Shown here one piece after another: positions 1-1,286 of a DNA stretch of 1,286 bases. Each line of letters starts with the position of its first letter. Within the stretch, counting starts at the first letter, position 1. Made by a program: the position numbers and the translations under genes. Below the pieces are notes generated by a model that saw only the letters and a list, made by a program, of their open reading frames with translations, searched no databases and had not been told where the DNA came from. The stretch is from Naegleria gruberi (lineage: Eukaryota): assembly GCA_000004985.1 (NCBI GenBank), contig GG739456.1; one strand, written 5' to 3'.

Positions 1-99
1 CCAGCATTTTCACCACTAGATATTGATTCCCAACCAGCAATATTCACCGTTGAGTTGAAATTATATGTAAGTTTTCGTCTAATGGTTGATCCAATTTAA
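1..99 (+). CDS. Possible 3' end (last 32 codons plus stop) of an upstream gene on the + strand: ...PAFSPLDIDSQPAIFTVELKLYVSFRLMVDPI*
   Basis: Frame 1 is open from the window edge to TAA at 97-99. The antisense frame (first codon base at 59, 56, ...) is also open across 1-95 but has no ATG, as is typical opposite a real coding strand. Two simultaneously open frames over ~95 nt in 30%-GC DNA is unlikely by chance (~0.07 each). Codons are yeast-like (CCA, GAT, CAA, TTG, GTT, ATT). The downstream gene lies in tandem orientation with a ~900-bp spacer, which is normal for yeast. Only 33 codons are visible, so this is tentative. Confidence 0.3.
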   Translation, partial: PAFSPLDIDSQPAIFTVELKLYVSFRLMVDPI

Positions 100-178
100 T
101 GATTGCTAATTGTTTTAATATTGAACTCGAGATGTATCATCTACCAATGAATTTCCAGCCATCAGTTGTCCAGACCAA

Positions 179-200
179 TTGTTGAAATAATTCCACTACT
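179..200 (+). repeat. Copy A of a diverged ~22-bp direct repeat (ttgttgaaataattccactact); its partner is at 312-333.
   Basis: 18/22 identical to 312-333 (tagttgaaatgataccactagt). Both are preceded by CCAAT (175-179; 304-308). The shared core is GTTGAAAT-N5-CCACTA. Confidence 0.5.
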
Positions 201-311
201 ATTTAAAATGAATCTACTTCAATGATTATTATCATTCAAGTCAATAGTGATACCATTGGGAGCATTTAATTTGGAAGTATTAGCCTAAACACTCACACCT
301 GCTCCAATAAC

Positions 312-333
312 TAGTTGAAATGATACCACTAGT
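312..333 (+). repeat. Copy B of the ~22-bp direct repeat (tagttgaaatgataccactagt), immediately followed by a third ACTAGTTGAAA copy (328-338).
   Basis: Seen in sequence. AACTAGTTGAAA at 309-320 and ACTAGTTGAAA at 328-338 form an 11-bp local direct repeat with 19-bp period. The ACTAGT palindrome occurs twice. Confidence 0.5.
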
Positions 334-692
334 TGAAACCTTTGTGATAGAATAATTTTGGATGAAGACATCACTTCAACTATTTAAAGCAACAATTAGG
401 AGGAAATCACCATCATCTAATTATTTAACTGATTGTGATTTCACTATCCAATTATTCAACTGTATTGGAGTTTATTGAATTTATTTGGAGTTTAAGGTAC
501 GTTTAAAGAATTGTAATTTTTCATATTTATAACTGGTTATCAATATATCAATACTCATAGCTTATCAATTTTAAGGATTTGTGGATTGGATTAATTGAAA
601 GTGGTGAAATCACTGAATTTTATGAGGATGATGATTATGATAAATTGATTGGACTTGTGGATATGATTGCTTGGATAAAGTGATGTGAATAA

Positions 693-786
693 TTAATATT
701 AATTATTAACGAGTAATGATAATAATTTAATATTAATTATTAATATTAATTATTGGCGAATTAGCATTAATAATTAATATTAATTA
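693..786. repeat. AT-rich palindromic repeat array. The 13-mer TTAATATTAATTA occurs 4 times (693-705, 727-739, 740-752, 774-786); the 17-mer TTAATATTAATTATTAA is exact at 693-709 and 727-743. The arrangement is symmetric: 13-mer, 21-bp spacer, 13-mer 13-mer, 21-bp spacer, 13-mer.
   Basis: Read directly from the sequence. Copy-start spacings are 34, 13 and 34 bp. The two 21-bp spacers (706-726 ttaacgagtaatgataataat; 753-773 ttggcgaattagcattaataa) are ~50% identical, and each carries a small CG-containing island, giving a ~34-bp higher-order unit. Each 13-mer contains the palindromes ATTAAT and TAATATTA. Degenerate TTAAT/ATTAAT copies continue to ~937 (862-873 ttaattattaat, 891-936). Confidence 0.85.
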
Positions 787-804
787 ATGACGTTAAAATA
801 ACGC

Positions 805-861
805 ATTAAAAGTCGATTTTCTCACGAACAAGGTTTAACGTTTTTATTAACGACTTTTCAT
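805..861. repeat. Imperfect inverted repeat: attaaaagtcg (805-815) versus cgacttttcat (851-861), 10/11 complementary, arms separated by 35 bp.
   Basis: Seen in sequence. The loop region (816-850) contains atttTCTCACGAACAAGGtttaacgtttttattaa with direct TTAACG repeats (836-841, 848-853), and a small hairpin cgtta-aaa-taacg lies at 791-803. It sits in the relatively GC-containing part of the upstream AT-rich tract, ~150-200 bp before the ATG. Confidence 0.6.
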
Positions 862-1009
862 TAATTATTAATAAAATTGACTTGATTGAATGTTAATATT
901 TGTCATTAAAAATTAATAAAAATCATTAGCAATTAATGTAAAAACAATTTAGCGGGTATTTGGTGAGAACCTTTTTGATCCAAGCAAAATCTTCCATGGT
1001 TTTAAAAAA
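860..1009 (+). promoter_or_regulatory. Presumed core promoter / 5' leader of the ORF at 1010. A-T tracts include the TATA-like TAATAAAAA (914-922, ~90 bp upstream of the ATG) and the forkhead-like GTAAAAACA (937-945).
   Basis: Assigned by position only, as the region immediately 5' of the first in-frame ATG. No canonical TATAAA is present, and the TSS cannot be determined from the sequence. Confidence 0.3.
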
Positions 1010-1079
1010 ATGTCATCAAACCAAATTGAACAAGAATCGAAGAAACTTGATGACGATAGTTTTCCCATTCAATCATTGA
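996..1079 (+). other. Upstream ATG (996-998, within CCATGG) opening a 27-codon uORF in a different frame that overlaps the main start codon and ends at TGA 1077-1079.
   Basis: ATG GTT TTA AAA AAA TGT CAT CAA ACC AAA TTG AAC AAG AAT CGA AGA AAC TTG ATG ACG ATA GTT TTC CCA TTC AAT CAT TGA. The uATG context is poor (T at -3), whereas the main ATG has A at -3. Whether the uATG is transcribed depends on the TSS position. Confidence 0.3.
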
Positions 1080-1286
1080 TGGATTTATATAAATCAAATG
1101 GTGAATTATTGGAAAGTGAAAAAATGGCAATTTTAAACATTTTAATTCTATTGTTGATTTTTACTATTGGATGTCTTATTGGATCTGTTGTGTTTGCTCC
1201 ATTGTTTGGATTTATGAAAGGAAACAAAATTAATCCAGTTTCTAATATTCTACACCATAAAGAAATGACTTATGAATTTGTGACGC
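1010..1286 (+). CDS. 5' portion (92 codons) of a protein-coding gene, truncated by the window end. Product: hypothetical single-pass membrane protein with an acidic ~39-aa N-terminal region followed by a ~29-residue hydrophobic helix (AILNILILLLIFTIGCLIGSVVFAPLFGF, nt 1127-1213).
   Basis: ATG at 1010-1012 sits in a strong yeast-type context (aaaaaaATGtc, A at -3). It is the first in-frame ATG after an in-frame TAG at 950-952. The frame stays open for 92 codons to the window end. Translation: MSSNQIEQESKKLDDDSFPIQSLMDLYKSNGELLESEKMAILNILILLLIFTIGCLIGSVVFAPLFGFMKGNKINPVSNILHHKEMTYEFVT. Codon usage is AT3-biased and yeast-like (TTG, TTA, CCA, GGT, GGA, AAA). The hydrophobic stretch is a clear TM/signal-anchor segment. 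No family was recognised from the sequence alone. Confidence 0.75.
   Translation, partial: MSSNQIEQESKKLDDDSFPIQSLMDLYKSNGELLESEKMAILNILILLLIFTIGCLIGSVVFAPLFGFMKGNKINPVSNILHHKEMTYEFVT

What the first reader, a model, noticed from the sequence alone, without database searches (positions are those of the whole stretch)
693..786. Symmetric array of a 13-mer ATTAAT-palindrome repeat 224-317 bp upstream of the ORF
Four exact copies of TTAATATTAATTA sit at 693, 727, 740 and 774, arranged outer copy, 21-bp spacer, tandem pair, 21-bp spacer, outer copy. The spacers are related to each other and each carries a CG island. This is far more ordered than generic AT-rich yeast intergenic DNA. The unit is built from nested palindromes (ATTAAT, TAATATTA) with TAAT cores on both strands, a geometry that suits dimeric DNA-binding proteins such as homeodomain, forkhead or AT-hook/HMG factors. 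It could also act as a nucleosome-excluding, easily melted element like a promoter NDR or an ARS-like DNA-unwinding element, or simply be a minisatellite prone to copy-number variation. Its position just upstream of a membrane-protein gene makes a cis-regulatory role the leading hypothesis.
Basis: partly seen in the sequence, partly recalled or inferred. Interest (0 to 1): 0.55.

Follow-up and report, generated by a model that had tools for sequence, protein, structure and literature searches.

The report
AT-rich palindromic mini-repeat in Naegleria spacer
The four identical 13-base motifs are real, but they are best read as an ordinary AT-rich simple repeat made by local duplication in a spacer between genes of the amoeba Naegleria gruberi; nothing found here indicates a specific regulatory role.

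Summary
TTAATATTAATTA occurs exactly at 693, 727, 740 and 774, separated by 21-bp spacers, and this is far beyond what base composition would give.

The DNA is not from yeast. The downstream ORF is 100% identical to Naegleria gruberi NAEGRDRAFT_61091.

The "symmetric" layout is two head-to-tail copies of a 47-bp unit (core, spacer, core). That unit sits on a decayed 6/7-bp repeat, TTAATA/TTAATTA. The mirror symmetry arises because the core is self-complementary; the spacers are related as direct repeats, not inverted ones.

The array is the least stable duplex in the window, and its single strand folds into a long hairpin (z = -5.3). It contains no A or T run of 4 or more; the 13 such runs between 684 and 1009 all lie at 791-1009, nearer the gene.

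The only detectable homologue of the gene (47-49% identical, on two metagenome contigs) has no such motif or AT-rich block upstream. Pairs of this 13-mer are about as common in other AT-rich DNA as pairs of scrambled controls, and none of the loci carrying them shares homology with the window beyond the core.

Most likely this is a slippage-generated AT minisatellite with only generic physical properties. A protein-binding or origin role is not excluded. The N. gruberi genome could not be searched.

The parts
693..705 (.). Core copy 1, TTAATATTAATTA. It lies inside the perfect 20-bp palindrome at 688-707.
706..726 (.). Spacer 1, TTAACGAGTAATGATAATAAT. It parses as three decayed heptamers and holds one CpG.
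727..752 (.). Core copies 2 and 3, a head-to-tail pair with a 13-bp period. This pair forms the tip of the predicted hairpin.
753..773 (.). Spacer 2, TTGGCGAATTAGCATTAATAA. It parses as three decayed heptamers and holds one CpG. It is weakly related to spacer 1 as a direct repeat.
774..786 (.). Core copy 4. It lies inside the perfect 16-bp palindrome at 771-786.
688..788 (.). The whole array. It is a 47-bp unit repeated 2.1 times, built on 6/7-bp TTAATA/TTAATTA units. It is about 11% G+C and forms a roughly 100-bp quasi-palindrome centred near 738. It is the least stable duplex in the window.
684..1009 (.). AT-rich spacer (21% G+C) between the fragmentary upstream region and the ORF. The array occupies its distal third.
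791..1009 (.). Proximal part of the spacer. It holds all 13 of the spacer's A or T runs of 4 or more, + strand AATAAA at 870 and 915, and three of the four TTAACG copies.
1010..1286 (+). The 5' part of N. gruberi gene NAEGRDRAFT_61091, a protein with a single hydrophobic, probably membrane-spanning segment. The annotated start is the ATG at 1124. The in-frame ATG at 1010 is probably the real start.

Best explanation
The array is a small, AT-only, self-complementary simple repeat (micro/minisatellite) in a spacer between genes of the Naegleria gruberi nuclear genome. It was produced by replication slippage and local tandem duplication, not assembled as a set of binding sites.

The base layer is a run of about 15 units of TTAATA/TTAATTA. 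A 13-bp unit (6+7) and then a 47-bp unit (core, spacer, core) were duplicated head to tail, which gives the pattern core, spacer, core-core, spacer, core. The units that acquired G or C substitutions (the 'spacers') are interrupted and no longer slip. The pure units (the 'cores') remain substrates for slippage and stay identical. This accounts for perfect cores next to diverged spacers without invoking selection.

The apparent mirror symmetry follows from the core being its own reverse complement. Its consequences are generic and physical: very low duplex stability and a tendency to form hairpins or cruciforms, which in turn promotes further slippage.

Shown here: the anatomy, the statistics, the source organism, the fold and stability, and the absence from the homologue's upstream region. 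Inferred: the slippage history and the neutrality.
For: - TRF finds overlapping periods of 6, 7, 13 and 47 over 688-786.
- Parsing the array into 6/7-mers gives 8 perfect TTAATA/TTAATTA units. The spacer units differ from that consensus by 1 to 5 mismatches.
- The spacers are related as direct repeats (184 of 5000 shuffles reach the score) but not as inverted repeats (1382 of 5000).
- Composition is 11% G+C with 23.5 TA steps per 100 bp, against about 9 elsewhere in the window.
- The single strand folds at -19.1 kcal/mol, z = -5.3, with outer core paired to outer core.
- 691-790 is the least stable 100-bp duplex in the window.
- Exact pairs of the same 13-mer occur in 53 IMG/VR stretches and at least 120 metagenome contigs. 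Similarity to the window never extends beyond the core.
- In 11 of those 173 loci the 13-mer occurs four or more times within about 120 bp. In most of these loci it forms regular tandem arrays, with periods of 18, 19 or 25 bp.
- Two scrambled A/T 13-mers give 47 and 40 stretches against 53 for the real motif, so the motif is not special.
- No motif and no AT-rich block lies upstream of the only homologue.
- There is no Rfam or tRNA match.
Against: - All 10 differences between the two 47-bp units fall in the 21 spacer positions and none in the 26 core positions (nominal P = 7e-5). The core boundaries were chosen after seeing the data. This pattern is also what selection on the cores would produce.
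- The position, upstream of a real conserved gene, is compatible with a promoter element.
- Copy-number variation between strains, the hallmark of a neutral minisatellite, could not be tested.
- Whether the motif recurs at other N. gruberi loci is unknown.
Confidence: 0.65

Rival explanations
1. The array is a cluster of binding sites for a dimeric sequence-specific protein, for example one of the N. gruberi homeodomain factors. On this view the four palindromic TAAT/ATTA cores form a promoter-distal regulatory module for NAEGRDRAFT_61091.
For: - The cores are perfectly identical while the spacers diverge.
- Each core lies inside a palindrome of 10 to 20 bp.
- The array lies 224-317 bp upstream of the probable start codon.
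Against: - The motif is absent upstream of the only homologue (low power at 47-49% protein identity).
- Scrambled A/T 13-mer pairs recur about as often in other AT-rich DNA.
- The layout is fully explained by tandem duplication.
- Centre-to-centre spacings of 34, 13 and 34 bp are not in helical phase (sequence).
- No binding data exist.
Confidence: 0.12
2. The array is a structural DNA element used as such. It would act as an unwinding or cruciform-forming site, serving as a replication origin component, a recombination or fragile site, or a chromatin boundary.
For: - It is the least stable 100-bp duplex in the window.
- The single-strand fold has z = -5.3, with a 20-bp outer stem and a central stem of about 17 bp.
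- A perfect 20-bp palindrome is present; simulations reach that length with P of about 0.015 to 0.03.
Against: - The arms contain only A and T, and the whole element is about 100 bp, far shorter than palindromic AT-rich repeats known to cause breakage (general knowledge).
- These properties come automatically with any AT-only self-complementary repeat.
- No chromosomal origin has been defined in Naegleria for comparison (my knowledge, not checked here).
Confidence: 0.08
3. The array is the 3' untranslated or terminator region of an unannotated + strand gene whose last exon ends at the TGA at 681-683.
For: - A protein-like ORF (579-683, ...GEITEFYEDDDYDKLIGLVDMIAWIK*) ends 5 bp before the array (688).
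- G+C drops from 30% to 11% right after it.
- N. gruberi 3' UTRs are short and use AAUAAA (PMC11529991).
Against: - No annotated or homologous protein matches any of the six frames of 1-700.
- I could not assemble a consistent exon chain by hand.
- There is no AATAAA in the array; the first on the + strand is at 870.
Confidence: 0.06
4. The AT-rich block (about 684-945) is a remnant of a small non-autonomous transposon (MITE), with the palindromic cores as its terminal or subterminal repeats.
For: - Weak inverted repeats join 688-749 with 893-937 (71-74% complementary).
- The block is absent from the homologue's upstream region.
Against: - The inverted arms are low-complexity A/T sequence with poor identity.
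- No target-site duplication is evident (sequence).
- No homologous copy exists in the viral or metagenome loci beyond the core.
- Multi-copy status in N. gruberi could not be tested.
Confidence: 0.05

Closest known systems
AT-rich minisatellites and cryptically simple sequence. Examples are the roughly 33-bp and 42-bp AT-rich minisatellites at human fragile sites FRA16B and FRA10B (general knowledge).
   Same: Both are head-to-tail repeats of a unit tens of bp long made almost only of A and T. Both are built on shorter internal periodicities, form hairpins, and are thought to arise and change by replication slippage.
   Different: This array has only about 2 copies of the 47-bp unit (about 100 bp in total). 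The spacers have already diverged, no copy-number polymorphism is documented, and the organism is a heterolobosean amoeba.
Palindromic AT-rich repeats (PATRRs) and cruciform-forming inverted repeats (general knowledge).
   Same: Both are AT-rich, nearly self-complementary over the whole element, and predicted to form a long imperfect hairpin.
   Different: PATRRs span several hundred bp with near-perfect arms. Here the arms match at 37 of 50 positions, and the symmetry is a by-product of a self-complementary repeat unit. The spacers are related as direct repeats, not inverted ones.
Clusters of homeodomain-type TAAT/ATTA sites, such as palindromic TAATTA or HNF1-like GTTAAT-N-ATTAAC (general knowledge).
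   Same: The cores contain TAATTA and ATTAAT. The stretch 698-710, ATTAATTATTAAC, matches the HNF1-type palindrome at 12 of 13 positions (sequence).
   Different: Any AT-only repeat of this kind contains such words. There is no evidence of binding, conservation or recurrence. No HNF1-type factor is known to me in Naegleria.
Tandem arrays of the same 13-mer found here in giant-virus and metagenome contigs (L006, L010, L011, L013, L102, L104, L127).
   Same: They carry the identical 13-mer core repeated four or more times within about 120 bp.
   Different: Those are regular arrays with identical or nearly identical short spacers (period 18, 19 or 25 bp). They share no similarity with the window outside the core, and scrambled controls are about as frequent. 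They are independent occurrences, not relatives.

Membership tests
AT-rich tandem repeat (micro/minisatellite) | Head-to-tail copies of a unit, detectable by a tandem-repeat finder | tested here: met
   TRF reports period 47 with 2.1 copies, 83% matches and score 133. It also reports periods 6, 7 and 13 over 688-786. Eight perfect 6/7-mer units are present.
AT-rich tandem repeat (micro/minisatellite) | Copy number varies between strains or individuals | not testable with these tools
   No other N. gruberi strain or close species is in the collections. The gene has a single homologue, at 47-49% identity.
AT-rich tandem repeat (micro/minisatellite) | No conservation of the repeat at the orthologous locus of relatives | tested here: met
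   There is no 13-mer (up to 3 mismatches), no AT-rich block and no similarity upstream of the homologue on L174/L175. The test has low power because the relative is distant.
Cruciform-forming palindrome (PATRR-like) | Near-perfect inverted symmetry over the whole element | tested here: inconclusive
   The arms 688-737 and 739-788 match at 37 of 50 positions. The spacers are not significantly complementary (1382 of 5000 shuffles reach the score). The fold has z = -5.3.
Cruciform-forming palindrome (PATRR-like) | Cruciform extrusion or breakage in vivo or on supercoiled DNA | not testable with these tools
   This needs wet-lab mapping.
Transcription-factor binding-site cluster (promoter module) | The motif recurs upstream of other genes of the same genome more often than expected | not testable with these tools
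   The N. gruberi genome is not held in any DNA collection here. P0001 is not on record in the contig index.
Transcription-factor binding-site cluster (promoter module) | The motif is conserved upstream of orthologues | tested here: not met
   It is absent upstream of the only homologue. The test is weak at this evolutionary distance.
Nucleosome-excluding poly(dA:dT) promoter element | Rigid homopolymeric A or T tracts of at least 4-5 bp | tested here: not met
   The longest homopolymer run in 688-790 is 3. Thirteen tracts of 4 or more lie in 791-1009 instead.
DNA unwinding element (origin-type) | A local minimum of duplex stability | tested here: met
   The window 691-790 scores -96.4 kcal/mol against a mean of -114.7 for 100-bp windows.
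DNA unwinding element (origin-type) | Origin activity | not testable with these tools
   This needs an ARS or 2D-gel assay in Naegleria.
MITE (miniature inverted-repeat transposon) | Defined terminal inverted repeats flanked by a target-site duplication | tested here: not met
   Only low-complexity arms at 71-74% complementarity were found. No duplication is evident in the sequence.
MITE (miniature inverted-repeat transposon) | Many dispersed copies in the genome | not testable with these tools
   The genome is not searchable. No homologous copies occur in the 173 fetched loci.
Giant-virus (mimivirus-type) intergenic signals | AAAATTGA promoter octamer enriched upstream of viral-type genes, and hairpin terminators between them | tested here: not met
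   AAAATTGA occurs twice against 0.67 expected, and 32 of 200 shuffles reach that count. The ORF has no relative in IMG/VR. The host scaffold is 1.56 Mb of N. gruberi DNA.
N. gruberi polyadenylation region | An AAUAAA hexamer (PMC11529991) | tested here: not met
   There is no AATAAA within 688-790. The + strand copies are at 870 and 915.

The most novel reading that the evidence does not exclude
The four perfectly maintained palindromic cores are held identical by selection because they are operator-like sites for a dimeric Naegleria DNA-binding protein, for example a homeodomain factor. Alternatively they form the unwinding core of a chromosomal replication origin. Either would be one of the first defined cis-elements in a heterolobosean nuclear genome.
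Probability: 0.1. Interest if true: 0.4.

Novelty: new member of a known kind. Interest (0 to 1): 0.12.

Why it matters
As it stands, this matters little. It is one more AT-rich simple repeat in an AT-rich spacer, and it shows how a self-complementary repeat unit plus one tandem duplication can look like a designed symmetric array.

It would matter only if the cores proved to be protein-bound or to recur at many Naegleria promoters. To my knowledge, almost nothing is known about cis-regulatory or origin sequences in Heterolobosea.

There is a useful by-product. The neighbouring gene model NAEGRDRAFT_61091 is probably incomplete at both ends.

Tried and rejected
- Yeast origin: rejected. The ORF is 100% identical to an N. 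gruberi protein.
- A coding or known-domain reading of the upstream 1-700: Pfam on all six frames gave nothing. A six-frame word-index search of 5.8 billion proteins gave nothing. Hand-built exon chains on the + strand did not close.
- Structured RNA or tRNA: no Rfam match at E up to 1 and no tRNA.
- Fetching the N. gruberi locus: P0001 and two window ORFs are not in the contig index.
- Protein-guided scans of metagenome and viral contigs found no relative.
- Giant-virus insertion idea (AAAATTGA promoter, hairpin terminators): AAAATTGA is not enriched and the ORF has no viral homologue.
- The idea that this 13-mer is a recurrent special core in AT-rich arrays: rejected. Two scrambled controls gave 47 and 40 stretches against 53.
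- Inverted duplication as the origin of the symmetry: the spacers are not significantly complementary.
- Literature on Naegleria promoters, repeats and terminators gave nothing specific to this motif.

Full report
**Observation.** The window contains TTAATATTAATTA exactly four times on the + strand, at 693, 727, 740 and 774. The intervening stretches 706-726 and 753-773 are each 21 bp. Allowing up to 2 mismatches on both strands gives 9 matches against 0.94 expected from dinucleotide-preserving shuffles, and no shuffle reaches 9. I used a stricter null as well: 326-bp sequences simulated from the AT-rich spacer itself with order-1 or order-2 Markov chains. Four copies of any 13-mer then appear in about 0.1% of simulations. 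Higher-order chains learn the repeat itself and are not a fair null. So the repetition is real and reflects duplication, not composition. Two details are overstated. Each "CG island" is one CpG. The spacers are only weakly similar: 11 of 21 positions are identical without gaps, and 184 of 5000 shuffles reach the gapped score.

**Source and surroundings.** The ORF starting at 1010 is 100% identical over its shared part to a Naegleria gruberi "predicted protein" on a 1.56-Mb scaffold. That protein is NAEGRDRAFT_61091, XP_002683360.1. The DNA is therefore from the nuclear genome of a heterolobosean amoeboflagellate, not from yeast. The database model starts at the in-frame ATG at 1124.

An exhaustive HMMER search found only one homologue (P0002, 49% identity by that search; BLASTP gives 47%). 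It lies on two nearly identical metagenome contigs, L174 and L175, which are 43% G+C. There the reading frame also stays open upstream of the conserved MAILN, and tblastx similarity covers window 1013-1207. The ATG at 1010 is therefore probably the true start, and the gene is real and conserved.

The 683 bases upstream are 30% G+C and contain only fragmentary ORFs. No frame matches Pfam or any of 5.8 billion proteins. One protein-like + strand ORF ends with the TGA at 681-683, just before the array. G+C falls to 21% in 684-1009 and to 11% in 690-790. There is no Rfam or tRNA match.

**Anatomy.** Tandem Repeats Finder reports one array over 688-786 with overlapping periods of 6 (ATTAAT), 7 (AATTATT), 13 and 47. 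The 47-bp period has 2.1 copies, 83% matches and score 133. The "outer copy, spacer, tandem pair, spacer, outer copy" pattern is exactly what two head-to-tail copies of a 47-bp unit (core, 21-bp spacer, core) look like.

One level down, the whole array parses into 6/7-mers. There are eight perfect TTAATA/TTAATTA units, which make up the four cores. Each spacer is three heptamers that differ from TTAATTA by 1 to 5 mismatches. All the G and C bases of the array lie in the first two heptamers of each spacer.

The mirror symmetry arises because the core is self-complementary. AATAATTAATATTAATTATT (688-707) is a perfect 20-bp palindrome, and 771-786 is a perfect 16-bp palindrome. The spacers are related as direct repeats (P about 0.04) and not as inverted repeats (P about 0.28). 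Tandem duplication, not inverted duplication, therefore built the array.

**Physical properties.** The single strand 680-800 folds at -19.1 kcal/mol against -8.5 ± 2.0 for shuffles (z = -5.3). The outer cores pair with each other (690-709 with 767-786), and the central pair forms the hairpin tip. By nearest-neighbour energies, 691-790 is the least stable 100-bp duplex in the window (-96.4 against a mean of -114.7 kcal/mol). The array has 23.5 TA steps per 100 bp, against about 9 elsewhere, and no A or T run longer than 3. All 13 runs of 4 or more between 684 and 1009 lie at 791-1009, next to the gene. From general knowledge, rigid poly(dA:dT) tracts are the sequences that exclude nucleosomes. 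If that holds here, the promoter-type nucleosome-free region would be the proximal part of the spacer, not the array.

**Evidence from elsewhere.** The N. gruberi genome is not in any DNA collection available here. Protein-guided scans of metagenome and viral contigs found no relative. The key test, whether the motif is dispersed in the source genome, could therefore not be run. Three things could be tested.
- *Conservation.* Upstream of the homologue on L174/L175 there is no 13-mer even with 3 mismatches, no AT-rich block, and no similarity to window 1-1009. The test is weak because the relative is distant.
BLAST similarity to the window never leaves the AT core. Eleven of these 173 loci have four or more copies within about 120 bp. 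In most of those the copies form regular tandem arrays, with periods of 18, 19 or 25 bp.
- *Control.* Two scrambled 13-mers of the same composition give 47 and 40 IMG/VR stretches. The motif is therefore no more recurrent than any A/T 13-mer. Short AT-only tandem repeats are simply common in AT-rich DNA.

**Most likely explanation (confidence about 0.65).** This is a slippage-generated, self-complementary AT micro/minisatellite. One feature could argue for selection: all 10 differences between the two 47-bp units lie in the spacer and none in the 26 core positions (nominal P = 7e-5). However, the core boundaries were defined after the fact. There is also a standard neutral explanation. Interrupted units stop slipping and drift, while pure units keep being homogenised by slippage, helped here by hairpin formation. 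This last step is inference.

**Rivals.**
- A cluster of sites for a dimeric DNA-binding protein is possible (about 0.12). [quoted passage not shown] Nothing here supports it beyond the geometry.
- A structural role as an unwinding or cruciform element is possible (about 0.08). It is compatible with the physics, but that physics comes automatically with any such repeat.
- A 3' UTR or terminator role for an unannotated upstream gene is possible (about 0.06). No gene could be established, and the N. gruberi poly(A) signal AAUAAA (PMC11529991) is absent from the array. The first + strand copies are at 870 and 915.
- A MITE remnant is possible (about 0.05). It lacks convincing terminal repeats.
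- A giant-virus-type intergenic signal was considered and rejected.

**Comparison with known kinds.** The array works like, and meets the testable criteria of, an AT-rich minisatellite or cryptically simple sequence. It resembles a palindromic AT-rich repeat only in miniature and only because its unit is self-complementary. It contains homeodomain-type words (TAATTA, and ATTAATTATTAAC, which is close to the HNF1 palindrome), as any such repeat must. It is a new instance of a known kind and is of low interest unless the genome-wide scan or strain comparison listed under next steps shows recurrence or constraint.

Noticed in passing
window 1010-1123; L174 378-608: The database model of NAEGRDRAFT_61091 starts at the ATG at 1124 (MAILN...). 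The frame is open from the ATG at 1010, 38 codons upstream. The homologue's frame is also open upstream, and tblastx similarity covers window 1013-1207. The N-terminus of the annotated protein is probably too short.
   Followed up: partly
L174 974-1022 (and the matching part of L175): In the homologue's contig, a 49-nt GTAAGT...AACAG intron starts inside the stop codon of the 121-aa ORF. Removing it joins that ORF in frame to the next ORF (about 400 aa, weak Cupin_8 hit), giving a 611-aa protein. The 123-aa N. gruberi model, which ends at the same ...FFK, may be only the first exon of a membrane-anchored cupin/JmjC-like protein. The N. gruberi sequence beyond 1286 was not available.
   Followed up: partly
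window 1-683 versus 684-1009: CpG is strongly depleted in the upstream 683 bases (4 observed, 15.6 expected). It is enriched in the AT-rich spacer (9 observed, 3.4 expected). The cause is unknown.
   Followed up: no
window 706-711, 791-796 (-), 835-840, 847-852: The hexamer TTAACG occurs four times within 150 bp against 0.49 expected for the whole window, and 1 of 200 shuffles reaches four. The pattern was chosen after seeing the sequence. It accounts for much of the CpG excess and is absent upstream of the homologue.
   Followed up: partly
window 1-683: The region has protein-like ORF fragments on the + strand, such as PAFSPLDIDSQPAIFTVELKLY followed by GTAAGT at 67, and ...GEITEFYEDDDYDKLIGLVDMIAWIK* ending at 683. 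It has no annotated protein, no Pfam match and no homologue in any frame. It may be an unannotated gene with introns or a pseudogene.
   Followed up: partly
window 797-869: There is a second, G/C-containing inverted repeat downstream of the array: AATAACGCATTAAAAGTCG pairs with CGACTTTTCATTAATTATT at 79% complementarity. It includes a perfect AAAAGTCG/CGACTTTT stem, read from the sequence, around a 35-nt loop.
   Followed up: no
window 996-998 and 1082-1095: An out-of-frame ATG lies 14 nt upstream of the ATG at 1010. It sits within an overlapping ORF (960-1079) that ends inside the main ORF. A perfect 14-bp palindrome, GATTTATATAAATC, lies inside the coding region.
   Followed up: no
IMG/VR loci L001-L053 and L176-L262: By contig name, roughly half of the viral contigs with closely spaced pairs of any of the three A/T 13-mers tested are giant-virus metagenome bins (GVMAG). 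Short AT-only tandem repeats appear to be a common feature of those genomes.
   Followed up: no
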